A stretch of DNA of 64,000 nucleotides from Lytechinus pictus (lineage: Eukaryota): assembly GCF_037042905.1 (NCBI RefSeq), contig NC_087250.1, positions 20,462,001 to 20,526,000 on the forward strand, read 5' to 3'. Position numbers and translations under genes: made by a program. Of the stretch, positions 13,606 through 46,940 are shown piece after piece; position 1 is the stretch's first letter; each line of letters starts with the position of its first letter. The notes beneath the pieces are model-generated. The model searched no databases and was not told the DNA's origin. It was given only the letters and a program-made list of their open reading frames with translations.

Positions 13606-15053
13606 TTACTGGTTAATTTGTTTGTTTCCTTCCCGTCTTTTCAGTTTCCTCATTTCTCTCTGTTTCTCACACCTCTTCCGATCCTCTTCACCCATCCTCG
13701 CCATCTTCTTCTTTCCGCATCCATGCGCCGCCTGCCTGGACTTTTTAGTTACAGCGCCACCGGCGGCAGTGGATGGTATAGTTGTGACGTCATTGAAGGG
13801 AGTGGAGACGGTGGGCTTCTTGAGGACGCATTTGCCATAGCCGTACTCATAGAAATAAGAATCTGGCTCTGCAGACGGCTCGACGTAGCATGCTAGACCA
13901 TCTCCGCATCTACCGGCCTCATCGAACGCACCGCCACATTCCTCGCCTTCCAACTGATGAGAGAGAGAAGGAGGGGGGGGGGGCAGAGAGGGAGAGATAG
14001 GAGAGTGAGGGGAGGGAGAGAAAGAGATAAAGAAAGGGGACACTGGCAATTATATACATGATATTTGATAAGAAAATGGTTTCAGTGATTGATGAGAATA
14101 AGAATATTGACTGAAATAGGATCATAATTTTTCCTGACTACTATAATTCAGAAAACAAAATCATAAAAATATGTGGCAAAAATTGAACGGTTCTTCCTTT
14201 CGTTCTCTTTTCTTTCTTTCTTTCTTTTTTTTTTTCTTTCTTTCTTTCCTTTTTTGTTCTTTCTTTCTTTCGTTCGTTCTTTTGTTTCTTTCTTTCGTCC
14301 TTTCTCTTGTTCTTTCTTTCGTTCTCACTTTCTTCCTTCCTAATTTCTTTCTTGTTTGTCTTTCTTTCTTTCCTCCCTCCCTCCCTCCCTCCCCCTTCCT
14401 CCCTTCCTTCCTTCCTTCCTGTTCCTTCCTTCCTTCCTTTCTGTTACCTTCGAGCAATCGCTCTTACAGCAGGAGCAGATATCCCATATGACTTTCGACC
14501 CGGCCGGACACTCGACATCTACCGGACAGTTTTCATCACGCCAGTCTTTGAGGGTTGAGGTATTAATGCCATACTCATGACAGATACAGCTCAGGCAATT
14601 TCCCCTTGAAATTAAAAAAAGAAGAAATGAACTTCATCTTATTTTCTGGTAACTATTTTATGTTTTAATAGAGATGTGAATAAAATTATTTCTATTGAAG
14701 ATTCGACAGCGTATAGCAAAACGTAAATAAGTGTAGACCTTAAAAAATGATCTAATTTCCTAAAACCTTCACCAGTATTTTTTTATTATTATTTCTGCCA
14801 TTTTTAAAACAAACTATTGTTCAGGGTAAACTACCCCTTTAATCATATTTATAATTAGTCTAAATTATCTTTATTAATCATAATTGATTCCGAATGAATT
14901 AAAGGGATGGATACTTTCGAAACACAATTAATCGGAAACATTTTCTGTCTCTAGTATAAGACCTCAGATTAGTTTTTCGGACCATATTAGTTCTTACCTG
15001 TCAAATAAAGCCACGGTTGCTATGACAATAAAAATCAATTTAGAAGACATCAT
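13606..15053 (-). CDS. Secreted single IGFBP-N-domain protein, paralog A, with basic tail
   Basis: Exons 15053-14998 (signal-like MMSSKLIFIVIATVALFD, phase 2), 14604-14448 (RGNCLSCICHEY...CPVDVECPAGSKVIWDICSCCKSDCSK, phase 0) and 13953-13606 (LEGEECGGAFDEAGRCGDGLAC...GKC plus Thr-rich and K/R-rich tail, stop). All GT-AG and in frame; 12 Cys in the mature domain. Probable 5'UTR exon with donor at 15655 and TATA-like motif at ~15770. Confidence 0.88.
14195..14440. repeat. Pyrimidine-rich (CTTT/CCTT) low-complexity tract in a gene A intron
   Basis: Seen directly in the sequence. Confidence 0.85.
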
Positions 15054-16203
15054 AGTTCTTGGTGTTAAGGTACCAATCGATAACAGATATAGGCCTATCT
15101 CCTGATGAGAAAACGATATTAGAAAGACAAGCCATCATGATATATTATTTAGTTTTATTCTAGTATTTGATGTTTTGTTCTAATTAATTGCTCCCGTTTC
15201 GTTTATTTTATTCGTACTCATGCAATCTTGTATTTAACATGTTTGTAAATCGAACTCCATATTTGTCGTAATATCTAATTTGATTAAAGTTTAATGCTTA
15301 TGATTAATGAACAGTGTTGATGATTTTATACAAATAAAAGGAATTAAGATATTCATTCATTCAAGAAAAGTAACAAATATACATACATTTAATAAATTCA
15401 ACATATTACAAAGCAAGTAACACTGTGTGATAAATGGAAATATTTAGTTGCACAGGTCCACATTTTAATAAAGGTCAAATTACTTGTTTTACACGGTAAT
15501 GTCACATGAATAGACACAGTACTTTTATCTTATAAAAAGATACAAGATATGATAATACTTTTCAAGAATTAAATGGAATTACTATAAAATCAAAATAATG
15601 ATTTTATTCTTTTTCAAGAAAAGTTTAGAGCGAATATTTTTTTAAAGATCCTTACCTTTTTAATGAATTCAAGGTTCATGCGTTTGATATTCTTCGGTAC
15701 AGTTGAATGTTATGAAGCCGAGCAACCTTTGTAGTATACACGAACTATAGAGATGTTTATTGAAGGGTTTATAGGCCTATATATCCAGCCTAAAATACCA
15801 CTAAATAAATATGGGTAGACAAAGGACTACGTGGGGGCATTCTGGGTATAATTCTCTTTTTATTTATATTTAGGTATAACCTGGATTTTAAGCTGTTTTT
15901 CGCAACCGCAACGCAGAACGCTTTCGAGAACCTAGATAACCTATAAATAATCAAATGCCCTTCACGACAATGAAAGCTTTGTCGAGGGTTGGTGAATTGA
16001 AATAGTATAGTTTCGCCCTGGACTCGCCCTGAATAAACGACTTATTTGCAAATTTTCGTCAGCTCCGAGGAGCAGGACGAAACTGCTGTTCCGGTTCACC
16101 AATTTCGATAAAGACCCCCCTCCCGATACATTCTTATTTTTGGGGCATTTTTTTTATTTTACTGTATTATTGAAGTCGTTCTGCGTCCTGGTGCGAACAC
16201 TCC

Positions 16204-16466
16204 TTAAGGGACAAGTCCACCCCAACAAAAAATTGATTTGAAGGAAAAGAGAGAAAAAAAAATCATCGACTGACTCATTTTGCATGACACTGAGTTGAGC
16301 ATATCACTGTGTTGTGTTTTTTTTTAAATAGGCGAAACTTTAAAATGCCATAACTTTTTTATTTTACATCCGATTTTTCCTGAAATTTTCAGCGTTATGC
16401 TAGTTTGATTTTTCTCTATTCATTCAAATCAACATTTTTTTCTGGGGTGCTGGTCTTGACCTTTAA
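16204..16466. mobile_element. Kolobok-like MITE (short, internally deleted copy)
   Basis: TTAAGGGACAAGTCCACCCC...GGTCTTGACCTTTAA; related longer copies at 25273-25850 and ~47860-48693. Confidence 0.65.
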
Positions 16467-16574
16467 TGACAAGCTCAAACCCCGGATCAGTTACAACAGG
16501 CAAACAAATAGAGGACCGGGGAAGGGGGTCTATCTTTGGTTTCGAGAGGAGATCAATGTCCCATCTCATAGAGG

Positions 16575-16638
16575 CACTAGCGTACCTACGGGGGGGGGCA
16601 GGGGGGGCACTCTGCCCCCCCTGACGAGATTTTGAAGA

Positions 16639-16673
<35 letters not shown>

Positions 16674-16719
16674 TGTCAAATTTTTTCTGGTACGAAAATC
16701 TGTATTTTGTATTGATGAC

Positions 16720-16755
<36 letters not shown>

Positions 16756-16952
16756 TGTCAAATTTTTTCTGGTACGAAAATCTTTATTTTGTATTGATGA
16801 CCCATTTTTTTTTTTTTTTTTTTTTTTTGCTTGTCAAATTTTTTCTGGTACGAAAATCTGTATTTTGTATTGATGACCCCTTTTTTTTTTTTTTTTTTTT
16901 TTTGCTTGTCAAATTTTTTCTGGTACGAAAATCTTTATTTTGTATTGATGAC

Positions 16953-16990
<38 letters not shown>

Positions 16991-17122
16991 TGTCAAATTT
17001 TTTCTGGTACGAAAATCTTTATTTTGTATTGATAACCCCTTTTTTTTTTTTTTTTTTTTGCTTGTCAAATTTTTGGGCGGCCAATTTTGCCCCCCCTGTG
17101 AAAAATCCTAGGTACGCCACTG
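16575..17122. mobile_element. hAT-like MITE with internal ~77-bp poly-T-containing tandem repeat
   Basis: TIRs CACTAGCGTACCTA / TAGGTACGCCACTG and an 8-bp TSD CATAGAGG (16567-16574, 17123-17130). About five units of GCTTGTCAAATTTTTTCTGGTACGAAAATC...GACCCC(T)n. Confidence 0.85.
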
Positions 17123-17210
17123 CATAGAGGGTTACACCTGGTAACCTTACCGTTATGGCAACTACCATGGCAGCATGGCTCAATAGCCAATCTCAAGCAA
17201 GGTTTTAAAT

Positions 17211-17450
17211 GCACAGCAAAAACTGTGGTGTTAACCGGTGTACATGGAGGACCACACCAGTCATTTTACACCGGTGTTAAATTGACAGTGTTAGTTTAAT
17301 ACCTATAGGTGTTATTACAGCACCTTTGGTTGCTACATTTACACTCTTTGGTGTTATGTTCAATCTCTAGGGTGTAATTTTAACACCTCAGTGTGTGGTC
17401 CTCTATTAACATCAACTGGTGTCAGTTTTAACACCACAGTTTTTACAGTG
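17211..17450. mobile_element. CACTA/EnSpm-like (CACWG-ended) MITE
   Basis: CACAGCAAAAACTGTGGTGTTAA...TTAACACCACAGTTTTTACAGTG inverted ends. Confidence 0.65.
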
Positions 17451-17629
17451 TAGCTATATACAATAATGACAAAGTTTTAACAGAGAGGGAGAGGGAAATG
17501 GGGGAACTGACATACCCAAAATATTATCTTGCCTATACATGTGGATGCTCCAAATCAGACCAGAAATGCGGGGAGAGAAAGAGGTAGAGCTATAGGCCTT
17601 ATTCAAAGACCAAGTTAAGGGGGAGACTA

Positions 17630-18370
17630 CACTGTTAGAAAATTTATCCTTAAAATAAAAGAAGTTCCTAGCTGCAGCAGAGTCTCGAGAACACCTGTAA
17701 TCTTACCAGATTGCGTAATCTTACAGGAAATTGGTATTTGGTGTATGGAACCTTACAAATTTCCTTAAATAAAACAGTCTTTTCCCCTTTTTAAACAGAC
17801 CTGTTCTCTTAAATTGCAGAAAAATTCCTATTATGAATTTACAGAATGATTCTGTCATTGCTTTTTGCAAAATCTTCTGTTTTTCTGTAAAATTAGGTTG
17901 TTTTTTTTCGCATACATTCGTAATTCCGAAGCTTCGTTATTCCGAAGGTTCGGATATTCCGAAGGTTCGTTATTCCGAAGGTTCGTATTTCCGAAGGTTC
18001 GTAATTCCGAAGGTTCGTTAGTCCGAAAACGAAATGAGGTTCGTTATTCCGAAGGTTCGTTAGTCCGAAAACTAAATGATTAACTAACCTTATTTCGTTT
18101 TCGGACTAACGAACCTTCGGAACAACGAACCTTATTTCGTTTTCGGATTAACGAACCTTCGGAACATCGAACCTTATTTCGTTTTCAGATTATTGAACCT
18201 TCGGAATAACGCCACAAATGTTCGGATTAACGAACCCTTTTACGTTTTCGGATTAACGAACATCGAGGTATAGGCAATTTACGTGTTTCGGAATTACGAA
18301 CCTTCGGAATAAAGAACCTTCGGAATTACGAACCTTCGGAATTAAGAAGTGTAACCTTTTTTTAACAGTG
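17630..18370. mobile_element. CACTG-ended MITE carrying an inverted array of 19-bp-based repeats
   Basis: TA|CACTGTTA...TAACAGTG|TA. The left ~250 bp match the array-free copy at 41938-42212. ~17915-18345 consists of TTCCGAAGGTTCG units that switch orientation at ~18080. Confidence 0.75.
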
Positions 18371-19213
18371 TACAAAATCTCTTGTCTATTACTTGTAAAA
18401 AGGGGCGATAAGAATGGGGAGGAGACAGCCCCAAGATATATCGTGCTCATATTCTGATATTACCTCAAGTTCACCCACTTGTGAATTTCAGTCGAGTAGC
18501 AAACTGGCATTCATAAATAATCCTGAGTTTTGATTGTTCTGCAGGGACGAGTTGGTATAATTGTAGATTAATCTGTAATTCTGATTTTAAAAAACCCGGG
18601 AAAAACCATATACTTTTTAACAGAAATTACTTATCTTACAACAATATGTACTTTTTTACCGGAATCTCGTTGATTACACAATGATACGAACTTTTGTATA
18701 TACTAGATCAAGGTTTTACAGGACGGTATAGCTAGATAACAATGGAAATGTCGTGTGCGCATCAATAGTTTGTTCAAAGATAAGGTTTGTATGTATTATT
18801 ACGAGAATACGAAGAATCTCGAGTTAAAACTATCTTATTTATTTACCCTGATACGAAATGCTCTGGAAACAGAGAATTGTCAATGGAATTGCAAGCTCAG
18901 GCCCAAACAAAGCTGATATCATATCTATGTATAAACGATATCTCGAACAAGCGTGTACATCGTCGTAACCCTCACGCACCCTAACACCCGCAATCGACCC
19001 ACACACGCACACATGACTCCCAAAGCCCACGCAGTAATCATGGTTAATTAATGAGTTCATAGGCCTATACGTTATGTTTATTGAAAATGAAAAAAAAAAA
19101 CACTTTGCTCGTCCGGTTAATGTCCCTGTTTTCCCGGTAGAAAAAAAAAATATCAATCCAGAAATAATGTAGAATGCCTTATTCTATTATTTTTTGGTTT
19201 TCATCATATTCTA

Positions 19214-19450
19214 ATTCTTCCCCCTCTCCCTCTCCTCCTCCTTCTCTTTTTCCTCTCCTTCTCTTTCTTCTTCTTCTTCCTTTTCTTCTTCTTCTTCGAT
19301 CTTTTTTCTTCTTCTTCTAATTCTACTTCTCCTTCTTCTCCTTCTTCTTTTTCTTCTTTTTCTTCTTCTTTTTCTTCTTCTTCTTCTTCTTTTTCTTCCT
19401 CTTCTTCTTCTTCAACTCCCCATCCCTTCTTCCTCCTGTTCTTTTCTTAG
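19214..19450. repeat. (TTC)n-type microsatellite / low complexity
   Basis: Seen directly; similar tracts at ~28920-29005 and ~29477-29605. Confidence 0.9.
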
Positions 19451-19968
19451 ATAAAGAAGACATATTGTATATCTTCTTTTAAAGTACAGAGCTTCTCGTA
19501 TTACCCCGAGTTATCAGTAGTCCTGTTGCGAGATGATTATTGAAGAGGCCCCGAAGTGACAAGATCGAAGGCGACCATACCAATTTGCGAATTACAGTGG
19601 TGCTCAAAATTTAGTAAGCCCCACAGAAAATGAACATATTTAGAGTGTTAAAGTTCTGCCATGTTTATGTGAAGTCAGGTGGTAAAATATTGCATTTAAA
19701 AAGGTTTGTGAACTCTTGGCTTGCCGAACATTGTGAGGTTGTTGTCTACATTCAATTCTCAGAATCCATCTGGGTCTTATTATGCTTATTGAAACCTTTT
19801 GAAATCGGTTTTATTTACATTTCAAAAGGGTATCGAAGAGAACATATGAAGTCCTCACTACTTTACTTGAATGTTTATTAACCTTCTTAAATTCCTTTAA
19901 ACATATATGTCCATGTATAGGTACAGGCTTACTATGGAGTTATGAACTATATACTCATTATAAATATA

Positions 19969-20500
19969 CATTGCGTCCCAGAAAAAAGAAAACAGGGATT
20001 CCCATGTCTTTATTCTTCAAAGGCAAATGAATTATGATATTTTATTTACATAATCATATAAATCAATTATTCATCTTTATTTTGATACCAAAAATGAGAC
20101 AAACACTTCACGCATTAATGCGCAAGATGAGTTTAAAATTTAAATGTCAAAACCAGGTTGCGCAGAAATATTGGACAAGCTTGGTTCGAGATACGACGAC
20201 CGTGCCTATTTTCGACGATTGGACTCATTAGCATTGCTTTTGTATTCTTTGTTAAGATTCTCTCCCTGATCACTGAAATGAGAGTGGATTCAGATTCACA
20301 CGTGAGTTTCTGCGCAAATCGTTTCTGATATGTCTCAATATTTATTGTTTGTTATCTGCCATGAGTGAACGATTTGCTAAGCTGTTGGTTTCAAATTAGA
20401 GATGAGATTCCAATCTTGCCATGAGTATCAGTAAAATCATATTTGATAATTTGTGAAATCCATCTCTGAAAACGGGTTTCCTTTTTTATGGGACGCACTG
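19969..20500. mobile_element. Tc1/mariner-like MITE
   Basis: TA|CATTGCGTCCCAGAAAAAAG...CTTTTTTATGGGACGCACTG|TA; a second, right-truncated copy at ~34881-35340. Confidence 0.8.
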
Positions 20501-22663
20501 TATGTAGCGGGGGGGGGGCATCAGCCCCCGCTACATACAGTAAAAAAGGAAACCCGTTTTCAGAGATGGAATTCACAAATTATTCAGCCCCCCCCCCACT
20601 TTTTTCCAAAAGCGTGTACAAAAACGTAAAATTACCATATGATTGTGATTTTTTGCATGGTCAGCCCCCCCCCCCCCTACTTTAAAACCGTTCCGCGGAC
20701 CCTGGTATTTATGATATACAAAAAAACGCAAAAGTAAAAAGGAACAAAGTGAGGATTCCGAAGCTCTTAGAAGAAGAAATAATACAACAAGAACGTGAAA
20801 CATGCAGTTAAGAAAAGCAAACTTACGAAATTTTCAATAAACAACAACAGAAATAAGAGAAAGAAATACATTCATGCTGATGAGGTCAATGACAACCTGA
20901 CACGGAAGGTCAAGAACATGTGACGTCACACTGCTGTGAAATTAGAACTCGATCACCGTGAGAAAGAAAACATTTCCAATCACACTAGACCCCCCAACAT
21001 TTTAACAATCTTTAGGTTTTATATTTGGGTAAGGAATTTCTTTCGACATGTCGGAACTTCATTGTGAGATTCATTTTACTCTTTGAAAGTCTTATGGTAC
21101 ATTTGTTGATCTTCCATAGCCATGATAGCGCTGGACTGCTGCAGCACCGCTATGTCAAATTTCATAGCACGCTTTTTGCACTTCACGGCGATGCGCGAGA
21201 AAAGCTGCATCGTCACGTGACGCTATTCTACCAATCGCTACGCTTGATATCATATACATGGTTTATAAAATGTGATATTCACCTTTCGCGCGATATGACG
21301 AGATGTCAGATGATGTACTAAGAATCAATGTAAAAATAGAAGATCTGAAATAAGACAGAGAGAGAGAGAGAGATGAGACTGGGAAAAAGAAAGTCTTTAG
21401 GGAACAGAACGGTCCCCGTCGGTTTAATAAGATCGATGTCACGTGACATGAAAGTCACAATTTATGACCGCCAGGAAAACAGTAAAATAATATTTTCTTT
21501 AAGTTGAATAATGTCATTTATCATACATTTCGACTTGTAATTGATGGAACGGAAAAAGCTATATCTCTTTCGACTTGGGCCCCGTTTCATAGATACTTGT
21601 TATCATAAGAAACGAACGACATTTATAAGAATTTTAATATCAGCCAATCAAATCGAATGATTTCAGTAGCTTTAAACTGTAATAGCAAATTTGTTATTAT
21701 AACAGGTTTTATGAAACGGACTCTTGCTCATCATCAAAGACTATCTGTATTTTTTCCTCTGCCTAATTTAGGCTTTACTTGCTTTAATAAAAGGACATTT
21801 AAAATTATTATATTCCATTGGTGATATCGGAATATATTCTCATATATTTGCTAAGCAAACAGAAACATGACTCGTTGTAATAAGTTGCCTTTCATTCACC
21901 AGATAATTTCGTGATATTAATTTAAAAAAAATAATAATAATAAAAATTAACAATAAAGATGTACATCGATGATTCAATGCAAAAAGTTATTGAAGTATTT
22001 TATTTGTGTAAAAGGCTGTATATAAGAATCTCACTGAAATATTATGAACATTTTAAAACCATGCTTGAACTTAACTTCTCTGCTAACACAAGACAACACG
22101 TTACGGGGTTGAGAATGGTAAAATTGTGACAGCTAATGTCACCGGTGGATCCAATATTTCATGAGGGGGCGAAGAATGTTTACAGATTTGTAAAGAATTG
22201 TACGCTAAGTTGCAGGGGAGGGGTGGACACCCTGTATTTAAGCCTAATTGGCCCCAATATTTCCAACTTTTTTTTGGTATATCAACTTAGTGCCAGGAAA
22301 TACCACGACGAAACGGTTACGGCTACGAAACGCTAGACCTTCAAAAGTGATAACATTATGATGTCGTACTACGTCACAATAGTCATGATAGTTCACGATA
22401 TCAGAGAGAGTGAATGGTCGGATGTCAGCCAGATGCCGGAAGGCTAACATTTGCAAACTTCCAGACGAATCGAAAGTGGCCAAAATAAAGCTTCAGGGTG
22501 TCCAAGAAAATCGGACACAAACACTCTCACATCATGCACATAAATCTATGCTTTTTCAAAGCTTTTGTCATAGGCATTGTTATTCGTTATTATCAGTGTT
22601 ATTAGAAATATTACTATTATTTTTATTGTTATTATTATTAGTAGTAGTAGTATTAGTTGTAGA

Positions 22664-22695
<32 letters not shown>

Positions 22696-22753
22696 CAGCA
22701 ACAGTATGATGATTTTTATCATCATCATATTTTTCATCATCACCACCACCATC

Positions 22754-23619: not shown

Positions 23620-23688
<69 letters not shown>

Positions 23689-26872: not shown

Positions 26873-29800
26873 ATGACGTTCCTTGAAGTGGTCCTTCTTC
26901 TTTTACTTTCCTGTATGATAGAGAGGTGAGCATTGATTTATAAATATAAAAACTACCTTTAAAAGAAAGTTTTGGAAATCCCTAGTGGAAAACATAGTAC
27001 CACACAATTTGTTAAGAGTGAGTGCATAGTATATGTTCTTAGTGAGTTCTGTGAATGTGGATCACTTTAAAATATTTAACAGCGTTAACATAATTTCAAA
27101 CTGTGGACACCTTGACAGTCCAGACTTTTCGCATTACTATACAGGGAAACTCTCTACACCGCACCAATTCCTTTGAAAATTCAACAACAAAAAAAGGTCG
27201 AATCGATTGATGATTCGACATTGTGTTCCACACTATAGGAACACACTATTAGACATCCTGCGTGAGAACAGACTCCGCTTCCACACTGTGAACAGACTCC
27301 GCTTCCACACTGTGAACAGACTCCGCTTCCACACTGTGAACAGACTCCGCTCCACACTGTGGACACAGTATAGGGCACACAGTCTTTTTTCGAGCAGGGC
27401 GTTGGTTACACGGACCTAATTACAACTGGCAGGCAAAAAATATTCATTCGAGCCAACACATTCTAAATTTTTAAATTTGATATTGCTGATGACAAACGTG
27501 AATGAGTATGATTGTCCATCTAGCACTGATTCTATTTTTGGTAACTAAACTGAACTTCCTTTTCCCAAATTGGGAAGATATTTCACCAGTTTGGAACTAA
27601 ATTTGACTGGCGAAAGAATAAGGGCCATTTTACTGTCTCAGATGCTGAATTTGATCTTGTCAAGCGTAGTATTCATAAATGCCGATTTATTTTTTAAATG
27701 AGCCGGTCAAGGTACCCTTTTCTGGTCAGATATGGAATGTCAGATATACATCATACCACTGGTAATAAACATTTGACCCTCGAATTTCATCCTTATTTCT
27801 TATGAATTTGTTTAAACTGCCAAATTAACACACGGGTCTATGGGAAATGTTTTAGGCCTGTGCAACCCGTTGTACACTTTCAGAAATCGCGTACGTCGTA
27901 GCCCGGAAAGGTAGTCGAAATAGTCAATCCAATCTGTATAGAGTTATTGAAAAGGACAATTTTGTGATACTATACCCTTTTTACACAGGATTTTCTTAAC
28001 CCCGGACTATCGCTAACCCCGTACTATCCTTAACCCCGTACTATTTTTTTTCCTTTTTACACATGCCAAATTGTTATTGCTAACCCCGGATAAGGAATGC
28101 TAGCTTTTCACACACGAAACTCGCTAACCCCGGACTAGTGGTTTTTGTCGATCATTCGTAGTACAAGTACTTCACTCGTACCATTTTACACACGCTACAA
28201 TTTCCTTAACCCCGTACTATAGGTGGGGCCAAATTGCAATTTAGCCCCACCTATATATAGTACGGGGTTAAGCTTAGCCCACTTTCGTTTTACACTAGCG
28301 ATCTTAACCCCGTACTATCGCTCTTAGCACCGCAATTGCTGGGATAACCCTGCTTTTTTGCAGGGCCAAATAATCCCGTACTAAAGGTGGGGTTAGCCCA
28401 CTTTGCAAAAATGCTGTGTAAAAAGAAAGTGGGCTAAGCTTAACCCCGTACTATAGTACGGGGTTAAGGAAATTTTAGCGTGTGTAAAAAGGGTATTAGT
28501 TTACATCCAGCGAGATTAGCCGCATACCTTTACCATATGGACATGTGTTTTGTGAGCTGTAAATACCAGAATTGGCAATCATATAATTATAGTCAAGCAG
28601 CAGGCAATATCAACTTTCAGAGATCTTGATCAAAGTTTATACCAACTCCCGATTTAGTCTGATTTTCCAGCTTCCATTTAGGTCAACCTATTAGGTGAGG
28701 TTAATGCCGGCTTTCGATAGAGTACTAATGGTTGTGTAGTTTCGATTCCAGTACGTATAGTAGGCCTCAAGTTACTTGTTTATTCATGTTATAAAAAAAG
28801 ATTGTCTTTTATTTGTTTGCTTGGTGGTTGGGGTATTTTTTTTTCAACGCAGACATATAGTCTTTCTTCAAAATCAATTCTTCCATAATCGTTTTATTTC
28901 GCAGAATGGAATGATTAGCAGGAGGAGAAAAGGAAGAAGAGGAAAAAGAAGAAGAGGAAGAAGAAGAAAAAGGAGAAGAAGAAGAAATTAATAATAATAA
29001 TAATAAGTTGTACAATTTCGAATTTTTTCTATAATGTATTTCTAATTTGTTGTAGTAGTGATGTTTTGACTTTCATGGTCTCGTATAAAATATTTGAAAT
29101 ATCTTCTTGCTACTATTCATGTTTTTTTTTTGGTCTTTTCTTAACAGCGCTTTGAAACATAGCATAGAAAGCGCTTCATAAAGTTTGTGTATTATCATTA
29201 CTGTCGTTATTATTACCGAAAACACTGAAGATAAATGGAAATGCATGGTAAACTGTATACGTTTGCCCTTTTCATGATAAAGGTGATCTTATACTCATGC
29301 GTGACTCTTTTTCGATCCGTTTTGTGAAACGCCTCCCATTCATGCTGGTCTAACAATAGGGATCCAATAAATTTGTCACATTTCTCTCTCACTTTCCCAG
29401 TGTCAAGTGACAGAGTTTTTTCTCCTACCTCTATTGAATAAAAGCACCTGACCAGAATAGAAATTGAAGGAATTATCCTCCTCCTCGTCCGTCTTCTTCC
29501 TCTTCCTCTTCTTCTTCTCCCCTCCTCCTCCTCATCCTTCTTCTTCTTCTTCCTCCTCCTCTTCTTCTTCTTCTCATTTTCTTCTTCCCCTCCTTCTCCT
29601 TCTCTTTAACATTCCTATTGTAAAATAATGTCGTACTTGATCTTGTCAGTATAATTCTAAAGAGAATAACAAATGTTTTTACATTATATCAAAATATCAA
29701 GTTAATGTAAAATAGCGTTAACCGTGCGTACGTCATACACATCTTATCATTATCGTACGCAAAGGAAAGAAGGGGGTAGTTGACAACATAACTTTCTGAT

Positions 29801-31630
29801 ACCCCTCTTTTGTTAAAATTTTACAGAAATCCATCGGAATTAGTATACAGTATAAATATATCCTTCAATTTCTATTTAGAAATTACCCAAACTCCCCCGA
29901 TCGGCTCGCTCGCCTCACTTGTCTTATTTCAGTCTGTATTTTGTTATTGAACATATGCCATATTCTTGCACCCCCTAGAATTATTTAAATAGATACAACT
30001 ACTTGAATATATGAATCAGAGTATTACAGTCTCCATAAAGTATTTTCCTTATAACAATTCGCTAATATTCTATGCAGAACTACAGAAAGTTAATTGTGTA
30101 TAACCTGTTTGAAGTTTTACTCCAATGTTCTTTAACTCCGACACTCGAATTATAATGATCGTTAAATACAAAGTAGGCCTATATTATTTCATGTGAAGAA
30201 ATTTAGTCAAGAAGGAAAATGAAACACGCTTTCGCATCATTTTTTTTTCACCTTCACTTTTTCTCTTCACGCCCACCTTATTACCCACAGGTCGATCTCG
30301 CTGTCGTGCCCCTGTTGGGCCCACGACGCTGACCCATCAAACCCGCTGTCATACAGAGAGACGTACTGCAATGACCTCAACCTTCAATGTCCTTCCGGGT
30401 CAGAGGTCATCAGCGACCACTGCGGATGCTGTAAAGTATGCTCACATGTGAGTATAGTATGCCATAAGAAACCAAAACTAATTAGCTGGAGACCCGGGGA
30501 GCCTCCAAAGGAGTCCAAGAGCAGGGGTCCGCATGGCCTTTGATGACATTATGTCCATGCACGTAAAATCTGGAGAATTGGGTTGTGAGACTCAGGGTAG
30601 GCCTATTTGGCGGAATGAGGGGGAGGGGGGGGTGAATTTTTACTATACTATCATACAGGCTTCACAATCCAGACAGGTTGAGCTTGTTCCCATTAAAGAC
30701 ATGACATACCATAAGACGCTAATGGGTAGCGAATTTGATAAAGGGTTCGTAAATATTTTCATATCACAAAGTGAATGGAGTTTTCAATGAGAATAGCGTA
30801 GTGCCCCAACCATAATGAGTCCATGGGGCTTATGTGTTTATAGACATAAAAAAAAACCGAGGTCCTCGATCAGTTTATATTTGATCAATGCTGATATTTT
30901 GATATTTTTAGGGCGATGCCGCTTTTAAAATAAGGACATGGAAATGTTTGAAAAGGAGACAATAAAATATTCCAATGCCAGAAAAAGGAGCATCCGATTC
31001 GATGCCAAATATTAGGGCTTCCAAAGCCATGCAAGGTCTTGGATTGCGATAGATGATCAATTTTTCGATGACCTTTCGTTCTTTCGTCAAATCTGGTTGT
31101 GCTCAAAACTAAAAATGCTTGCCTCCTTTTGAATATAAACAAAGTTATCTTATGTTTTATTTACTGATCAGGTTGAAGATGAGGAATGCGGGGGACCTTG
31201 GAACGTACTAGGAACTTGCGCCAAGGACTTCGAATGCGTCGACCCAAAGACGAAAGCTCCAATCCACATGGAGAAATATATCGTCAATATCCCTATGGGA
31301 GTCTGCAGAAGAATCAAACGATCTGGCGCAGGTCAGGCGCCCTCTACGCCCGAGCCACGTCCATTCAAACCTGAGTTCCCTCCTGGTTTCTCATTAATGG
31401 ACTTCTTCGGACCTTTCGGTCCACAGCGGCCATTGGATAACGAAAAGCCATTGGGTATCAACAAGAAGACGAAGAAGACAAAGAAGGACAAGAAACTGAA
31501 GAAGGATTTGAAGAAGAAGGACAGAAAAGAAAAGAAGGAGAGGAGAGATAGGAAGATGAAGGAGATTAGGAAGCAGAGTAGGAGAAAAGTGAGCAACGAA
31601 GTTAGCAATGAGATTCCCAAGTACTTCTAA
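26873..31630 (+). CDS. Secreted single IGFBP-N-domain protein, paralog B, with Pro-rich then Lys/Arg-rich tail
   Basis: Exons 26873-26925 (MTFLEVVLLLLLSCMIE, phase 2), 30291-30447 (RSISLSCPCWAHD...YCNDLNLQCPSGSEVISDHCGCCKVCSH, phase 0) and 31172-31630 (VEDEECGGPWNVLGTCAKDFEC...GVCRRIKR...KYF*). GT-AG and in frame; CGCCxxC motif; 12 Cys. Confidence 0.9.
27262..27362. repeat. 27-bp minisatellite, about 4 copies
   Basis: Repeat unit GTGAACAGACTCCGCTTCCACACT-like, repeated in tandem. Confidence 0.85.
27973..28495. mobile_element. TIR MITE with internal TAACCCCGTACTAT repeats
   Basis: TACCCTTTTTACAC...GTGTAAAAAGGGTA ends; lies in a gene B intron. Confidence 0.75.
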
Positions 31631-37715: not shown

Positions 37716-37841
37716 CTACGGAGTGCAGTATCCCTTTGAGAAAGGATTCTTGATGACCTTGCCCGTCTCGTCCTTGCAAGCTAGACCCTTTGAACATACT
37801 CCGAAGACCTTCCATGGTCCTCCGCACTCCTCTCCTTTCCC
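37716..37841 (-). CDS. Second IGFBP C-half terminal exon (3b): alternative last exon of paralog C, or an orphan exon
   Basis: Acceptor CTGTTCTTTTGATCTGCAG, then phase-0 GKGEECGGPWKVFGVCSKGLACKDETGKVIKNPFSKGYCTP* (126 nt, 4 Cys). Homologous to exon 40850-40563. Confidence 0.8.
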   Translation of the reverse strand, partial: GKGEECGGPWKVFGVCSKGLACKDETGKVIKNPFSKGYCTP

Positions 37842-39002
37842 CTGCAGATCAAAAGAACAGGGAAAAGACAGTATGTCAATTCCAAATATGGAAGCAATTC
37901 AGTCTTAAAGAACAGTATCTGGGGTCAATAACCAGTGAGTCTGTTTATCCAGAAGGTTTAGATGATGAATCGTTGTCCTGTCTTATGCAAATGAAGAGTC
38001 TCAAAGGACAGTATCTTGGATTAACAACCAGCCAGTCTGTTGCTTCAGAATGTTCAGATGATACGTAGTTGGTCTATCTGCATGCAAATGGAGAGTCACA
38101 GAGGACAGTATCTCGGATCCACAACCCGACAAGCCGGGCTGTCGCCATGGTCAAGGTTGCTGATCTGGTTTAGGCTAGGCCTATGCGTTCCTTAGCATTT
38201 CAATTTAAAACCATTCTGATGTTCAATGACTCCGGATGATAAATGCAAAAAAGGAGGAAAATGAACAGTTCATTATTTTACTTGTCCGTGACGTCTTCAT
38301 GCTTGATTTGTAGACTTCAATGGTATCTACCAAAAAGGCCGGTGTGCAACGGATAAAATGCCACCTTCGAAACGTTGAGAACAGCAAAACCACAACAGTC
38401 AGCCTTCTTGGGGCATAATGTTTGGCAAGTTATAAGTCAACGTGTGTCCTAAATCAAAAGTCTGAGTATATACTAAGTTGTGTGTAAAATATGTGTAAGC
38501 AGCAGAGACCCCGTTGAGTCATGTGGTAGGTTAGTCAGTTAGTTTTGTAGAGATTGTCAACGTCCAATGGAAAATTCTCAAAGTGTATGTATGTAGCTTA
38601 GGGGTCCCGAATTAAAATCTGGTCACTGGTCAGGTTCAAGGAAGCCATACAGCTGGGATGTTTAGCCAAGTCGATAGAAGGTCGGTAGGGAGTCGCATAC
38701 GCTTGCAAGAGTCCGCAAGTAAGTCGTAATGCAATCTGAACCATCATAGAACAGGATGTAGAGTCATTGTATATATAGTCCGTCTATGCAAGCTTACCAC
38801 CAGTTCCTGTAAGGTCAAAGGTCAGACAGTCAATATCAGTTGGTCCTATACTTTGTAAATTTTGGTAGATGTTCATATAAATGTCAGCAGGTTCTGGGAC
38901 CCGGTCTGGGACACGTTCACAATAAAAAATAGCATCATCTCGATATCCTATATCATGTACATATTATTCTTACATGTCTTATGCAGGTAATTATTCATTC
39001 AC

Positions 39003-39981: not shown

Positions 39982-40216
39982 CACTGTTCAAAATAATTTA
40001 AACAACGCTGTTTACTATGTGAATCGCACAGTAGTTTTTCAAACAGTTTAAACAAGTGTTTAAAATCTTAAACAACCATGCTAAAAATTATTGATAATTA
40101 TTCATTTGAATTTAAACTTTGTTGTTTAAGATTTAAACACTTGTTTAAAATGTTTAAACAACTACTGCGCGATTCACATATAGTAAACAGCGTTGTTTAA
40201 ATTATCTTTAACAGTG
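39982..40216. mobile_element. Palindromic CACTG-ended MITE
   Basis: CACTGTT...AACAGTG ends with long inverted arms. Confidence 0.7.
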
Positions 40217-40562
40217 TATGTAGAGAAGCCCATTGGAAGTTATAAGCCTTGATGTTACAAAAAAAATTGCACTCAGCAATAAGAAGAACATATTAAATCA
40301 CGTTTAATAAGGAATGAAAATATTATTGATTAATCTTTTAGAGAATATTCTTTATTGTCCGTTGACTAACTGGATTATGGTCTTTGCTCCAGGCTAGGAA
40401 TCTGGTTTAAGATCTGGTCTACTAGGTCCTTAGTGTAAGATAGACCTGTCAGTAATAGGTCCAGGGTGGGTCTACTGATTCGAAGTGTAGTTTGGAGAAT
40501 GGTCTTATTGTCTAGGACCCCTGTCTAAGACCTGATCTAGCAATGTCCTTGAGTATAAAGAC

Positions 40563-43500
40563 CTACCAGTAATAGGTCCAGGGTGGGTAGTAAGGATTCG
40601 GAGGATAGTTTGGGGTCTCAGGATAGGTCGGTGTATCAGGGTACGTTGGTTGATCGGGATACGTCGGTCTGTGTGGATAGTTCGGAGTCTCGACGGTCTT
40701 CTTCGGACTTTTACAAGCCCCAATTCTCATTCCGAATGGGTTCATGCTGTTCGTCGAAACCACTGTTCCGGTCTGTTTGTCCTGGCATTCGAGTCCCTCG
40801 GAGCACGTCCCCGCTGTCTTCCATGGTCCGCCGCATCTTTCATCTATTCCCTAAAGGTCAAAGGTCAATGTTTAAGGTTAAGGACAGGGATAGAGAAGTG
40901 CCTATAATAATAATGAACAATGATAATACATGCGATTTGTATATAGCACACTTTCCGTCTTGATTAGATGCTCAAGGCGCTTCAGAGCAGAACAATTAAC
41001 AAAAACAATTTACATATAATACATGTCTGAACAATAAATCAAAGTCTATCAAAAAGCACACTTATACAGGTATGTTTTCAGGTTGCCCTTGAAGGTGGTC
41101 ACTGAAGTCTGGGTTTTCAAACTATGTGGGAGAGAATTCCACAGGCTAGGCCCTGCACGAGCAAAGGCCTGTTCCCCACATGATTTCTTGGCAAGTGGAA
41201 TTTGTGAGAGATTAGATGATGATCATCTACGTAACGAGACGGCGAGAATATTGATCTCACAGTGCCGAATTATAGCATGTTTGCAAGTCGACGTGGCGAG
41301 ATATTTTCACTTCGCCAAGTCGATTTTATATCCTTGTTATGTTGAAATGATAAGATACATTGTCTTGCCAAGTCGACTTAAAAAAGGTTGTTTGTCGTCA
41401 TGGCGAAATAGCCTACTTGATAAATGTAATTCATCATGGCGACATTATATGTTCATAAAGTCCTCTTCGCAGGGCAATGTGTCTCATAATGTCGACATAC
41501 AAATTATCATAAGTCGACTTGACAAATATCCTATCTCACCATGTTGTCTACATGCAACTTTCCACGAGTCGACTACACAAGATATCATGTGTCGACACGA
41601 GATGTTTTATTAGCTGACTTGGACTTGGCAAGATAAACGTATCTTGCAATGTCGACATAATAATCTCTTTAAGCAAAATGACACTCTAAAGCTTCCGCAA
41701 ACAAGGCCTCGGACAGTGCTCCTTTTTTGTTACACTGCCAGAATACGGTAAAGGAGATCTCGCTCTGTGATGATTTACGAACACAGTAAATGTATTGTCA
41801 AATGTCCATCATGACAAAGAACGTCAGATAAATCTTTGTCGAAAATTGGTAATCAAATAAAAACGGCAATTTACTTCTTGATTCTTGAAGTCAGCTCTGA
41901 AACTTAAGACAAAACTGCTCATTTGGCTCACCAATCACACTGTTAGAAAATTTATCCTTAAAATAAAAGAAGTTCTTGCAGCAGAGTCTCGAGAACACAT
42001 GTAATCTTACCAGATTGCTTAATTTTACAGGAAATTGGTATTTGGTGTATGGAACCTTACAAAGTTCCTTCAAGAAAACAGTCTTCCCCTTTTTAAACAG
42101 ACCTGTTCTGTTAAATTGCAGAAAAATTCCTGTTTGATGAATTTACAGAATGATTCTGTTATAGCTATCTGCAAAAACTTCTTTTATTTTAAGTATAGAT
42201 TTTCTAACAGTGCATATTTCCGACCAATTTGGGGATGCTGTGTGTATAATTCTTCATAGTCAGCACCCCCATGTATCCTTGAAGATATGTAAAAATGAAA
42301 CAAAAATGTAACCAAAAAGACCTTCATTTTGCAGTGAAACCCTTTTTTTTTTACTATACAAAGTTCAAGAAACCAATTTTACGTCTATTTTGTAAAGATT
42401 TTTTTTTGTTTTTCCAATTTCTCCGTTTCAATTTGACTTCCATTTTGTAGTGAAATTTTTTTTTTTTTTGCTTTTCAAATTTACATTAGCACCCCACTTA
42501 AAATAATCTTTCACAGGGCCCTGAAGACCTCCCAGTGTTTGAATTGCTATTTTAAAAATAATTATAAACAAAGCGACATGTTATTTTTAGTCAGCTGACT
42601 TTGTTAATTTGACGAACATTTTCAGTATATATTTAATCCGTTCTTGATCCTCTGTGTGTCACAGAGCGAAAACTTCCTGATATCATTCACTCTTATTAAT
42701 AATAGTTGGGCAAAAAATGCCCGACTTTTACCCAACCCTGGGCAACAAACTGTCCACGCAACTATTGGTTAAAATCTGTCCAAATTGGGTAATAAAAACT
42801 AATAATTGGGTAATAAATTTGCTCAATTAGATAATAATTGCCCAGAAAATATATGTATTTTTTACAAACATATATTACCCAACACAGTGGACAGTATATT
42901 GCCCAACACGTTAAGTGTGTAGGCCTGTAAACGCGATGCCGTGCTGACATATCGAATAGCATAGAGGCCTTGGGAAGTAGAGTTATTAGGTAAGGACCTA
43001 ATAAGGTTCTATATGACATTTGCTCCGGTTACAATTGCTCCGATGAAAAATCTGCAAGATTATCCAAACATAAATCCTAGCCCCCAACACTAAATAAACC
43101 CTCATCTTAATATTTTCATTAGTCTGAACCAAAAAGTCTATTGCACTCCTAGCTATAACCCTATGCCCTCTGAGATATTACAAGACCTAAGCAAATGTCG
43201 CAGGAGCAAATGTTGTGTCACCCCTAAGGAGTCACCCCGCACCCCCCCCCCCCCTCCCTCCCCATTGTACTGTCGATTAGAATTTATCCTTGAAACGTTC
43301 TTAGGAATACCTAAAGATGCATATAGATCTTGGCTATCTAAAATCAAGAAAACTTGCATTCTCGGTATTTCTTTAACCAACCACATTCTTGGTTCAAATA
43401 CGAACCAAGCAACGGTTGGATAAAAAAAAGAGAATCTCAAGTGACATTGAAATAAATTTTGGTTTAACCAATAATTGATTAATAATTTAACCAACTTATA

Positions 43501-46500
43501 GGATGGTTAAAAAACATGGGACCTTTGGCAACTCCATGGTAGATGGCGCAATTCAATATGTCAAATACATTGAAGCAAAATTTACTTATTAAAATGCACA
43601 AACCCTTCAGAAGGCTAAACTCTTTCTTAGCATTTCATACCTTTTCACCTTAATTCTCTCCCCCCCCCCCATTTCCAATCAATCTTAACAATTAATATAA
43701 ACGCATAGGTTTGGTCATCCGTTACCGCCTCCCCCCCCCCCCTTGTTTGCGAATATTGAGAGATTTGAGGTACATTTTGTTAATCAATTTATATTGTAAT
43801 ATGAATTGGTGAAACGCTTGTAATACCTGCGGTTTTGTTTTTAAAAAAATTGAAGATTAAGATTATCAATCACTTTAATCTTACTCGCTAGGATTAGCGG
43901 ATTAAGTCAGATTTGCTTTCAAAGTACATTGTAATGATTTGTTGTTCGAATAATTACAAATGATCAGTGAGTTTGATGGCTAATGAACTTGGATAGATGT
44001 TTCAACCGGTATTACTCCGTATTACTCTGACAGAGGTTTCAGCAAATTAGTGGCAAAATGAAACAAAATTGAATTGGCGGAAAAAATAAGCATTTTAAAA
44101 TACAAGGTACTCCAAAAAGAACAGTAAAAGAAAACTACAAATTTCATCCAATCAAAATAAGTCAAATATTTGTAACATTTCAGTCAAATCTTTTTGTAGC
44201 CATATAGATATATCTCTAGGGTTGAAACTCACCGGTGTTTTGTTAAAGTAATGTTCGAATTGCCCTTTTTAAACTAGTTATCCAAATTGCTGAGAGGGGG
44301 CGCTTTGTGTTTTTAGAATAAAATTCCAATTTTGATGGAGAATCAACGAATGGTTCAAGGGAGATTGAATAGTAACTGTTTTGACAGATTGGAATGTTAT
44401 AAATCATTTTAATATATTTTATATTTATTTCCCAAACTCCTTTCAAAGTGTACAGTCTTGCTCATAGCGTAATCAACGTGGAGTGTACATGACAAATCTC
44501 GTACAAGTCCCCAGCGAGCAAAGAGCAACATTTTTTTAAAACAAAAATCTGCTTTTGTTATAGAATTGGGCATATATATTGAAAAACAATAACATCATAT
44601 TTTACCCTTTTCTCATGTTTCCCTTGTTTTATAATTCTCTTTTTTTTTGGTCGTGGAAGTTTGTTTTGGGGGTGGGCCGTGGCCCCAAAGCCCCAACCCC
44701 GTTCCGGATCTGTACACCAGCTGTAGGGGATCAAGGTTGGAGGAAATATGGCCCGTGCCCCCCCCCCCCCCCTTGAGAGCCATAAAACAAAGTTCACGAT
44801 TCTCTTTTTTTTTGGTCGTGGAACTTTGTTGTTAGTGGAAAATGTCGTGCATTCGAAAGTGTAGACCTGTTTTTCCTTTATTTTTTTTTATTTCTTAACA
44901 AAATTGCCCCTCCCTGGATTCTCCCCTTGAGGAAGACACAAGAGAGAGAGAGGGAGGGAGGGGGTATTTACCTTAGAACATATTTGACAGCAACCGCATG
45001 CATCTAGTATAGATCGTTGGCCTGTTGGGGGTTGGGGCTTCCCCAGGGAGGGATAAGAGAAATAGAGGGGGTGGGGGTATTTACCTGAGAACGTATACTT
45101 GACAGCAACCGCATGCATCTTGGACAAGTCGTTGGCCTGTTGGGGTTTGGGGCTTCCCCAGGGAGGGATAAGAGAGAGAGGGGGTGGGGGTATTTACCTG
45201 AGAACATACTCGACAGCAACCGCATGCATCTAGGATAAGTCGTTGGCATGACGGGGGTTGGAAGAGAGAGGGGGATGGGGGTATTTACCTGAGAACATAC
45301 TTGACAGCAACCGAATGCATCTAGGACAGGTCGTTGGCCTGTTGGGGGCTGGGGCTTCCCCAGGGAGGGATAAGAGAGAGGGGGTGGGTATTTACCTGAG
45401 AACATACTTGACAGCAACCGAAGGCATCTAGGACAGGTCGTTGGCCTGTTGGGGGTTGGGGCTTCCCCAGGAAGGGAAAAGAGAGAGAGAGGGGGGGGGG
45501 CGGGGTTATTTATCTGAGAACATACTGACAGCAACCGCATGCATCTTGGACAAGTCGTTGGCATGTTGGGGGTTGGGGCTTCCCCAGGGAAGGATAAGAA
45601 TGAGATGGGGTGGGGTATTTACCTGAGAACATACTTGACAGCAACCGCATGCATCTAGGACAGGTTGTTTGCCTGGTGGACATGATGGGGGTTGGGGCTT
45701 CCCCGGGCATCTGGCATTTGGGAGTTCACTCCAACATGGACAGCTCAGTCCCTGGCAGCTGATTAAATAGATAAGCATTTCTTTAAGGACAAGTACAACC
45801 TGGTAATCGGGATGATTAGTTGGTTTTAATTAAAATAAATAGAGAAAAGATATTGTTAAGGTCGTAGGAAAATCCGTCATAGAATGACGAAGTTATGAAT
45901 TTCAGAATTTTTTTATTAATTATTATTTTGTGACTTAACTGATGAGCGAGGAGCTCCTCTCTTGTGTGATGTAAAGTCCCCAAAATGCAATTAAAAAATG
46001 ACAGCGAAAGTCAGCGATTATATTTCTTGCGATGAAAATCGGCCTGCATGTATATATCATCAGATACATCATCAAATACTAGTATATCATAATTTTTATT
46101 TATTTATTTATTTATTGGTATATATGCACATAAAAATTGACCAGCAGCACAAGCTGAAAGGGTGCATTACATACTAATAATCCATTTAAAAGGGGAATTT
46201 ATCGCACATGATATTTTGGAAAACTCCTTGCATATGACGTCACGTTACAAAGTTTTTTTAGATAATCAAAACTCTCAAATTCTTTGATGAATTTTCACCA
46301 AACCTTCTTGAATATAATTCTTTAATTTTCTGCTTTTATCAAAACCACCTAATCGCCACGGTGAACTGCCTCTTCAATTCACTATTTGGTCGACTGATTC
46401 ACGCAAATTTTTGATAATTGATTTAAAAAAAAAGTAAAAGGCAAACTAATTTGAAAGATGCTATTGTGAACTTGGAGAGTACCTTGTTTATGAAGTTCCA

Positions 46501-46940
46501 CTCACATTTCTTTATGACTGAATAAATGAATAATAATAAATAGCTCCAGGAATTATCAAATAACCAATCATAGTAATGTTTCTCTCTAAAAATCGTCTGA
46601 AGAATAAAATAGATTTTAGAATGATTTTTTTTTTCAAAGTGACACTTTCTTCCTCTATGTCAGGTAGGGCTGCATAATTATTTCACTTTCTTCATAATAA
46701 CCAATCTCTAAATAATGGATAATCATGGTGGATATTAAAACCTTATTTTGATTGTTTTCCCCATATTTGTATTATTCGAGATTTTCTTTTTTCCTGAAAC
46801 TAAAAAAATAAATTTTGCAGTTAAAATCATTTTGGTGTTTATATGTGTGAAGAAAAAGAACTATTATTTAGGGATAATACTTACTTCTCAATGACCGCAA
46901 TTACAACCGTCAGTGCTAGTAGTTTTAGTTTTGCAGCCAT
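40563..46940 (-). CDS. Secreted single IGFBP-N-domain protein, paralog C, with Tyr/Pro-repeat tail (isoform 3a)
   Basis: Exons 46940-46885 (MAAKLKLLALTVVIAVIE, phase 2), 45758-45623 (NCQGLSCPCWSELPNARC...SCPPGKQPVLDACGCCQVCSQ, phase 0) and 40850-40563 (GIDERCGGPWKTAGTCSEGLEC...GACKSPKK...PNYP/PTYP repeats...PWTYYW*). AATAAA at ~40351; probable 5'UTR donor at ~47485. Confidence 0.9.
41938..42212. mobile_element. CACTG-ended MITE (uninterrupted copy)
   Basis: CA|CACTGTTAGAAAA...TTTTCTAACAGTG|CA with a 2-bp TSD. Confidence 0.8.
44940..45622 (-). repeat. Tandem array (6 extra units, 91-118 bp) derived from the 3' half of gene C exon 2 plus its splice donor
   Basis: Each unit repeats ...GATGCATGCGGTTGCTGTCAAGTATGTTCTCAG|GTAAATACC. 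Donor-equivalents at 45513 (GT>AT), 45395, 45288, 45197, 45084 and 44971. Confidence 0.9.

What the first reader, a model, noticed from the sequence alone, without database searches (positions are those of the whole stretch)
13606..46940. Cluster of three small secreted single-IGFBP-domain genes invisible in the ORF track
Seen: three genes (A minus, B plus, C minus) with the same architecture. Each has a probable non-coding exon, a 53-56-nt signal-peptide exon (phase 2), a 136-157-nt Cys exon (phase 0; 157 nt in both A and B) and a terminal exon opening xxxExCGGxW/F. Each predicted mature chain starts LSCxC and has 12 Cys. Established: this is the IGFBP N-terminal fold, found alone in crustacean SIBDs, abalone perlustrin and arachnid venom proteins. 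Here no Kazal, Ig, thyroglobulin or VWC domain follows, and the first Cys pair is CxC rather than the usual CxxC. Inference: a lineage-specific, strongly diverged family of insulin-like-peptide binders or matrix/defence proteins.
Basis: partly seen in the sequence, partly recalled or inferred. Interest (0 to 1): 0.82.

Follow-up and report, generated by a model that had tools for sequence, protein, structure and literature searches.

The report
Sea urchin single-IGFBP-domain gene cluster
Three real sea urchin genes encode small, predicted-secreted proteins of a known single-domain IGF-binding-protein type that likely bind insulin-like hormones, and one gene uses either of two last exons to swap the half of the domain predicted to hold the hormone.

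Summary
The three genes are real. The spliced models match Lytechinus pictus RefSeq proteins (LOC135154556, LOC129262847, LOC129262846), pass the Pfam IGFBP cut-off and fold most like spider SIBD-1. RNA contigs show junctions of B and C; junctions of A were not displayed. Orthologues exist in L. variegatus and S. purpuratus, and one of C in Diadema. They are members of the known single-IB-domain (SIBD, 'venom protein 302-like') kind, and orthologues already carry those automatic names. The CxC pair is not lineage-specific (35 of 150 hits outside the urchin set). A has 14 Cys, not 12. The notable part: the last intron splits the domain into Cys1-8 and Cys9-12, and gene C has two last exons (40850-40563, 37841-37716), both spliced in RNA contigs. 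The short in-frame isoform was not among the database proteins returned; S. purpuratus comparison suggests its frame is conserved (1-7% by chance). The scan had noted that exon on this window (e1-7810014). Ligand untested.

The parts
15656..15679 (-). Gene A: 3' part of upstream exon with the in-frame ATG used by the RefSeq model (5' end not determined)
   Evidence: P0003 N-terminus maps here, GT donor follows; orthologues P0004, P0012 start downstream
14998..15101 (-). Gene A signal-peptide exon (ATG 15053; 56 coding nt, phase 2)
14448..14604 (-). Gene A Cys1-8 exon, 157 nt
   Evidence: equals part of P0003
13606..13953 (-). Gene A last coding exon: Cys9-12 subdomain plus 73-residue basic tail with 2 more Cys
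   Evidence: contig cover (X15 record 8)
26873..26925 (+). Gene B signal-peptide exon, coding part (53 nt, phase 2)
   Evidence: equals start of P0001
30291..30447 (+). Gene B Cys1-8 exon, 157 nt
   Evidence: (X1 contig joins 30447 to 31172)
31172..31630 (+). Gene B last coding exon: Cys9-12 subdomain plus 107-residue tail with 36 Lys/Arg
47486..47604 (-). Gene C upstream exon (before the ATG exon)
   Evidence: joint 46949/47486 in X15 and X18
46885..46949 (-). Gene C signal-peptide exon (ATG 46940; 56 coding nt, phase 2)
   Evidence: joint 45758/46885 in X3, X15, X18
45623..45758 (-). Gene C Cys1-8 exon, 136 nt
44960..45620 (-). Six degenerate intronic copies of the 3' half of gene C's Cys exon with its donor; 3 of 6 keep 66 nt, the frame and GT; no use seen in RNA contigs
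40563..40850 (-). Gene C last exon, proximal (C3): Cys9-12 subdomain plus Pro/Tyr-rich tail; a donor at its stop codon allows read-on into D3 out of frame
37716..37841 (-). Gene C last exon, distal (D3): second version of the Cys9-12 subdomain, no tail; gives a 105-residue in-frame isoform
   Evidence: (joint 37840/45622 in X1, X3)

Best explanation
These are three intron-split genes for predicted-secreted single-IB-domain (SIBD-type) proteins that likely act as low-affinity extracellular binders of the urchin's IGF-like hormones, with gene C switching the predicted hormone-binding half of its domain by alternative last exons. Shown: gene structures, expression of B and C junctions, IB-family membership, absence of further domains, and two last exons spliced to the same Cys exon of C. 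From family knowledge: IB domains close four disulphides in the N-terminal ladder and two in the C-terminal subdomain (PMC7866140, passages), and the C-terminal part (mini-IGFBP-5, residues 40-92) holds the main IGF cleft (PMC3356058, passages). Inferred: the phase-0 intron sits at that 8/4 Cys boundary, so each exon is a self-contained disulphide module and swapping the last exon changes the putative ligand face and removes the tail; the basic tails of A and B would hold the proteins on sulphated glycans or matrix; binding would be weak because no C-domain is present.
For: Models equal RefSeq proteins. PF00219 above cut-off in 5 of 5 and 3 of 5 further relatives, with 2 of 5 just below. Best solved match by sequence and by fold is SIBD-1 (E 1.1e-4; Z 7.2, rmsd 3.0, 65 aligned), then IGFBP-7 and IGFBP N-domains. 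Mini-IGFBP-5 aligns to model residues 51-101, that is to the last-exon part (weak, Z 2.3, rmsd 2.7, 38 aligned). The genome has two IGF-like genes as candidate ligands. Precedents for lone IB domains binding insulin-family peptides: perlustrin (PMC4244560, passage) and locust neuroparsin 4 (PMC7915749, passage). RNA joints of C to both last exons. Loop between Cys11 and Cys12 is 23 residues in C3 and 16 in D3; C3 and D3 are 54% identical over 39 residues.
Against: Isolated IGFBP N-domains bind 10-100-fold more weakly (PMC3356058, passage), and some authors hold IGF binding of IGFBP-related domains to be biologically irrelevant (PMC5618481, Introduction). The IGFBP-5 Val49 position aligns with Pro/Ala followed by Trp/Phe, and Leu70/Leu74 fell outside the aligned stretch, so the canonical patch is not shown to be kept. 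SIBDs are mostly tied to immunity in the papers seen (PMC7555818, PMC4244560, passages). The C-to-D3 joint rests on two contigs of one study with 33 and 28 letters on the short side. The plain synonymous count in the D3 frame test was not significant (5 of 11 against 0.30-0.39 expected), and the strict 5-residue test gave 6.5-7.5%. The model's first 25 residues are low confidence.
Confidence: 0.45

Rival explanations
1. They are IGF-independent immune or surface-defence proteins of coelomocytes, tube feet or pedicellariae, like spider haemocyte SIBD-1 and scorpion venom-gland 'venom protein 302'.
For: Closest solved relative is SIBD-1, linked to immunity (PMC4244560, PMC7555818, passages). Scorpion venom-gland entries share the CxC start and a long Cys2-Cys3 gap. 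In Tripneustes gratilla a transcript annotated Venom Protein 302 was highest in tube feet/pedicellariae and absent from larvae (bioRxiv 10.1101/284224, passages); S. purpuratus isoforms of A and C carry the same automatic name.
Against: That the Tripneustes transcript is an orthologue of A, B or C was not checked. 'Venom' is an automatic best-hit label. One-to-one orthologues are well conserved (B 78% to S. purpuratus), unlike fast-turnover immune families (general knowledge). Scorpion rows do not group with the urchin rows in the tree (weak resolution).
Confidence: 0.27
2. They are extracellular-matrix or biomineral-matrix proteins, like abalone perlustrin, held by their basic or Pro/Tyr-rich tails.
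For: Tails: B 36 Lys/Arg in 107 residues, A 20 in 73, C 15 Pro and 10 Tyr in 68. Perlustrin is a nacre protein with a lone IB module (PMC4244560, passage).
Against: No skeletal proteome evidence was found or examined; locus identifiers appear in no paper main text of the library; supplements were not searched.
Confidence: 0.12
3. They are neuroparsin-like hormones that signal through a Venus kinase receptor rather than sequestering IGFs.
For: Top feature-based look-alike cluster for both B and C is 'neuroparsin-A-like' (0.86 and 0.87, leads only; 20% of members carry PF07327). Venus kinase receptors are reported from echinoderms, and their ligand outside arthropods is an open question (PMC4522560, PMC4888303, passages).
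Against: No PF07327 match for any of the five proteins at E up to 1; the genome-wide PF07327 search gave one chance-level hit elsewhere. Presence of the receptor in this genome was not tested.
Confidence: 0.08
4. They are first exons of ordinary IGFBP7, CRIM1 or CCN genes whose downstream domains were missed.
For: Some relatives in the profile search are longer multi-domain proteins (15 of 150 exceed 230 residues).
Against: Each last exon ends in a stop; RefSeq proteins of three species end the same way; a 2306-nt contig runs from B's Cys exon through the stop into the 3' region. The genome's other IB-domain loci lie on other contigs with the Pfam core in one open frame.
Confidence: 0.02

Closest known systems
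Single IB-domain proteins (SIBD-1/-2 of Cupiennius salei, PDB 3ZXB/3ZXC; decapod SIBDs; 'venom protein 302-like')
   Same: [quoted passage not shown]
   Different: Longer Cys2-Cys3 segment (17 residues in A and B, 8 in C), tails of 68-107 residues, and an alternative last exon in C.
Vertebrate IGFBP1-6
   Same: Homologous N-domain with the CxCCxxC core.
   Different: No thyroglobulin C-domain; canonical hydrophobic patch not shown to be kept. The RefSeq name 'IGFBP2' for the S. purpuratus orthologue of B is a best-hit label.
IGFBP-related proteins (IGFBP7, HtrA1, CRIM1, CCN, ESM1)
   Same: IB domain with the longer CGG-x-x-x-x-x-G-x-C spacing as in IGFBP7.
   Different: No Kazal, Ig, protease, VWC or cystine-knot modules; IB domain split by an intron, unlike the four other IB loci found in this genome.
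Perlustrin (Haliotis laevigata)
   Same: Lone IB module, secreted, reported to bind IGF (PMC4244560, passage).
   Different: Not compared by sequence here; perlustrin is a shell-nacre protein.
Arthropod neuroparsins
   Same: Small 12-Cys IB-like secreted proteins, often several per species; top language-model look-alike.
   Different: No PF07327 match.

Membership tests
SIBD / single-IB-domain proteins | One IB (PF00219) domain above the curated cut-off | tested here: met
   36.6 (B), 31.6 (A), 34.2 (C) bits against 28
SIBD / single-IB-domain proteins | 12 conserved Cys with CxCCxxC core | tested here: met
   A has S for G in the core, 3 residues before Cys8, and 2 extra tail Cys
SIBD / single-IB-domain proteins | No second folded domain | tested here: met
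   tails are low-complexity without a transmembrane-length hydrophobic stretch
SIBD / single-IB-domain proteins | Cleaved signal peptide, secretion | tested here: inconclusive
   21-22-residue hydrophobic leaders with small -3/-1 residues; no SignalP available, no proteomics
SIBD / single-IB-domain proteins | IB fold | tested here: met
   for B only: mean pLDDT 68, best match SIBD-1; residues 1-25 poorly modelled
IGFBP1-6 | Thyroglobulin type-1 C-domain | tested here: not met
IGFBP1-6 | Val49/Leu70/Leu74 hydrophobic IGF patch | tested here: inconclusive
   Val49 position not conserved as Val; Leu70/74 outside the aligned stretch
IGFBP1-6 | High-affinity IGF binding | not testable with these tools
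   needs a binding assay
IGFBP7 / CRIM1 / CCN / HtrA | Downstream Kazal, Ig, VWC, TSP1, protease modules | tested here: not met
Neuroparsin | PF07327 match | tested here: not met
Neuroparsin | Activation of a Venus kinase receptor | not testable with these tools
   needs a receptor assay; receptor gene in this genome not searched

The most novel reading that the evidence does not exclude
The intron at the subdomain boundary has turned the IB domain into a two-part cassette: sea urchins keep a constant disulphide ladder and swap the ligand face by choosing among duplicated last exons (two in gene C, conserved to S. purpuratus; possibly several in the S. purpuratus orthologue of A), so that one gene yields binders of different insulin-family hormones; in the boldest form these proteins are the missing non-arthropod, neuroparsin-like ligands of the Venus kinase receptor.
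Probability: 0.15. Interest if true: 0.7.

Novelty: new member of a known kind. Interest (0 to 1): 0.33.

Why it matters
As a cluster it is modest: it extends SIBD-type proteins, studied mostly in arthropods and molluscs, to a genetically tractable deuterostome, and no paper on these loci was found in the library. The useful part is gene C: two natural isoforms that share the leader and Cys1-8 but differ in the Cys9-12 subdomain give a built-in controlled test of whether lone IB domains select among insulin-family ligands, and the RefSeq models appear to read the distal exon in the wrong frame.

Tried and rejected
Complex prediction of B's domain with an L. variegatus IGF-like peptide: no answer, score 0.01 against a mark of 0.34, alignments not used, controls not run; not used as evidence either way. 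First read-laying (likeness 90) was swamped by intronic repeats: 15 of 332 joint rows were shown and none was a junction of A or the first junction of B, so these rest on RefSeq identity and orthologues. Raw reads X19 and X20 (about 6% of each run read) gave depth of 1 or less on B's last exon and almost none on A; not used as evidence on expression level. No listed holder was on record as RNA; X1, X3, X15, X18 are taken as RNA because their contigs skip GT-AG introns. Fourth gene between C3 and D3: rejected, no further Cys or signal exon there and D3 is joined to C's Cys exon. Tandem half-exon copies as cassette exons: no joint among the 13 listed; absence in contigs is not proof. Extra paralogues elsewhere in the genome: none found with three exon queries (counts are lower bounds); L016 and L021 look like chance. 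Monophyly of A+B+C: unresolved (64 rows kept, 20 dropped for lacking a complete domain, bootstrap unsettled, clade test unfinished). Simple synonymous-share test on D3: not significant. The 12-Cys regular expression matched only 1 of the 4 other IB loci, so the single-frame statement for them rests on the Pfam matches. CxC as a lineage marker: rejected. Synteny with SF3A1 in other species: not tested. Paper supplements were not searched and may list these loci.

Full report
Observation. A six-frame motif scan found three LSC-x-C exons and four CGG-type last exons in the window. Splice boundaries were fixed from the sequence: A on the minus strand (15053-14998, 14604-14448, 13953-13606), B on the plus strand (26873-26925, 30291-30447, 31172-31630), C on the minus strand (46940-46885, 45758-45623, then 40850-40563 or 37841-37716). 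All model introns are GT..AG, the first in phase 2 and the second in phase 0. Only three genes' signal exons and one chance candidate passed a window-wide scan for hydrophobic phase-2 exons.

Identity. Database searches returned the window's own proteins: Lytechinus pictus LOC129262847 (B, P0001), LOC135154556 (A, P0003) and LOC129262846 (C, P0005). Joined by coordinates, B equals P0001, A equals the last 186 residues of P0003, and the C read-through form equals P0005. Single Cys exons score under the Pfam IGFBP cut-off (17-24 bits) because an intron cuts the domain; whole proteins pass it (31.6-36.6 bits against 28). No other family reaches its cut-off. An AlphaFold model of B's domain from a 5-row alignment has mean pLDDT 68 with residues 1-25 under 50; its best matches are spider SIBD-1 (Foldseek E 1.1e-4; Z 7.2, rmsd 3.0, 65 aligned), then IGFBP-7, other IGFBP N-domains and HtrA1. 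The profile search of solved sequences agrees (6 hits, all IB-domain proteins, SIBD-1 first).

Expression. In one search a 2306-nt contig of run X1 joins 30447 to 31172 without mismatches and continues past B's stop; a contig of X15 covers A's last exon. Junctions of A and the first junction of B were not among the rows shown (15 of 332). In one search (four contig sets, two studies) 5 of the 13 listed joints skip GT-AG introns of C: 47486/46949 (X15, X18), 46885/45758 (X3, X15, X18), Cys exon to C3 (X3, X18; 29 letters on the short side), Cys exon to D3 (X1, X3; 33 and 28 letters, one study), and the end of C3 to D3 (X3 only; 28 letters). The runs are not on record as RNA; their intron skipping is the evidence that they are.

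Relatives. One-to-one orthologues of A, B and C exist in L. variegatus and S. purpuratus; within each species the records give the same longest-contig length, which suggests one scaffold. Diadema has two relatives, one grouping with C at 97/87. [quoted passage not shown] A profile search of 1.84 billion representatives gave 507 hits at E up to 0.001; of the 150 listed, 135 are 230 residues or shorter, 6 are urchin-type, 35 others have CxC, 51 have CxxC, 21 another gap, and 37 were partial or lacked the core. Named CxC carriers include Centruroides, Hemiscorpius, Mytilus, Antedon, Branchiostoma and Gordionus. CxC is therefore no lineage mark. The tree (64 rows, 20 dropped, 85 columns, bootstrap unsettled) supports each orthologue group but does not resolve whether A, B and C share one origin. 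A shared feature does point that way: all three have the phase-0 intron after Cys8, whereas the four other IB loci found in the genome hold the Pfam core in one open frame. Three exon queries found no further paralogue.

The switch in gene C. C3 and D3 are paralogous (54% over 39 residues) and each supplies Cys9-12. Splicing to C3 gives 159 residues with a Pro/Tyr-rich tail; splicing to D3 gives 105 residues with no tail; both have 12 Cys. The loop between Cys11 and Cys12 is 23 residues in C3 and 16 in D3. The RefSeq proteins returned for three species use D3 only as an out-of-frame 19-residue tail after C3; the in-frame form was not among the proteins returned. That tail is identical in L. 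variegatus and differs at 11 of 19 positions in S. purpuratus. Read back into the domain frame, 5 of 11 changes are silent, which alone is not above the 0.30-0.39 expected. The S. purpuratus tail is, however, still compatible with all seven conserved domain residues and no stop; neutral simulations with as many changes did so in 1.0-1.4% of 5000 runs per setting, and in 6.5-7.5% for the five strictly invariant residues (the two extra residues, Pro-Trp, were chosen from the alignment, where 3 of 4 exons have them). I read this as moderate evidence that selection keeps D3 in the domain frame.

Mechanism. In IB domains the first eight Cys form four disulphides among themselves and the last four form two (predicted for shrimp IGFBP1 in PMC7866140, passages seen), and the main IGF cleft lies in mini-IGFBP-5, residues 40-92 (PMC3356058, passages seen). 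Mini-IGFBP-5 aligns weakly with model residues 51-101, and the exon boundary lies between model residues 52 and 53. So the intron falls at the subdomain boundary, and the alternative exon replaces the part predicted to carry the ligand face. The genome has two neighbouring IGF-like genes. Lone IB modules are reported to bind insulin-family peptides in abalone (PMC4244560, passages) and locust (PMC7915749, passages). I commit to low-affinity extracellular binding of IGF-like hormones, with basic tails of A and B likely tethering to glycans, at 0.45. Against it: isolated N-domains bind weakly (PMC3356058), the relevance of such binding is disputed (PMC5618481, Introduction read), and the canonical hydrophobic patch is not shown to be kept. 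Rivals: IGF-independent immune or surface defence (0.27; a 'Venom Protein 302' transcript is highest in tube feet/pedicellariae of Tripneustes, bioRxiv 10.1101/284224, passages, orthology unchecked), matrix or biomineral role (0.12), neuroparsin-like ligand of the Venus kinase receptor (0.08; top look-alike cluster, both under 0.9, but no PF07327 match; receptor distribution and open ligand question from PMC4522560 and PMC4888303, passages), truncated IGFBP7/CRIM1 (0.02).

Literature. [quoted passage not shown] PMC7555818, PMC3509713 and PMC12785732 were seen as passages. The library lacks most subscription journals, and supplements were not searched, so this does not prove the loci are undescribed.

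Verdict. Real, annotated, members of a known kind; not a new family. The alternative last exon of C is a genuine structural variant worth one experiment. Interest 0.33.

Noticed in passing
window 44960-45620 (-): Six degenerate tandem copies of the 3' half of gene C's Cys exon with its donor site; three keep 66 nt, the frame, a GT donor and a pyrimidine tract plus AG in front, so they could act as cassette exons; none seen used in RNA contigs.
   Followed up: partly
S. purpuratus LOC587887 (P0012, P0161-P0165): The orthologue of gene A has database isoforms with three different last-exon versions and several leader versions around one identical Cys exon; parallel exon duplication or assembly/haplotype artefact.
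   Followed up: no
window 40567 / 37841 (-): A donor overlapping the stop codon of C3 lets transcripts read on into D3 out of frame; this form is the RefSeq model in three species.
   Followed up: yes
window 2659-4203 (+): 514-codon open frame with a CCHC zinc knuckle, gag-like; likely a retrotransposon remnant.
   Followed up: no
window 57637-60384 (+) and beyond: Exons with two Surp modules, consistent with SF3A1, the neighbouring gene; name from recalled domain knowledge.
   Followed up: partly
L017-L020 (G000:C19:2547321-2692658): Two IGF-like genes about 140 kb apart, each with a long basic C-terminal extension.
   Followed up: partly
L001, L002, L003, L005: Four other IB-domain genes on other contigs with the Pfam core in one open frame; L003 is followed by a Kazal-like Cys pattern.
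   Followed up: no
window 37907-38126 and 16639-17074: A 96-nt tandem repeat just upstream of exon D3, and a 75-82-nt poly-T-containing tandem repeat upstream of gene A.
   Followed up: no
window 38146-38941: Contigs of run X3 cover parts of the intron between C3 and D3; unspliced precursor or unannotated exon.
   Followed up: no
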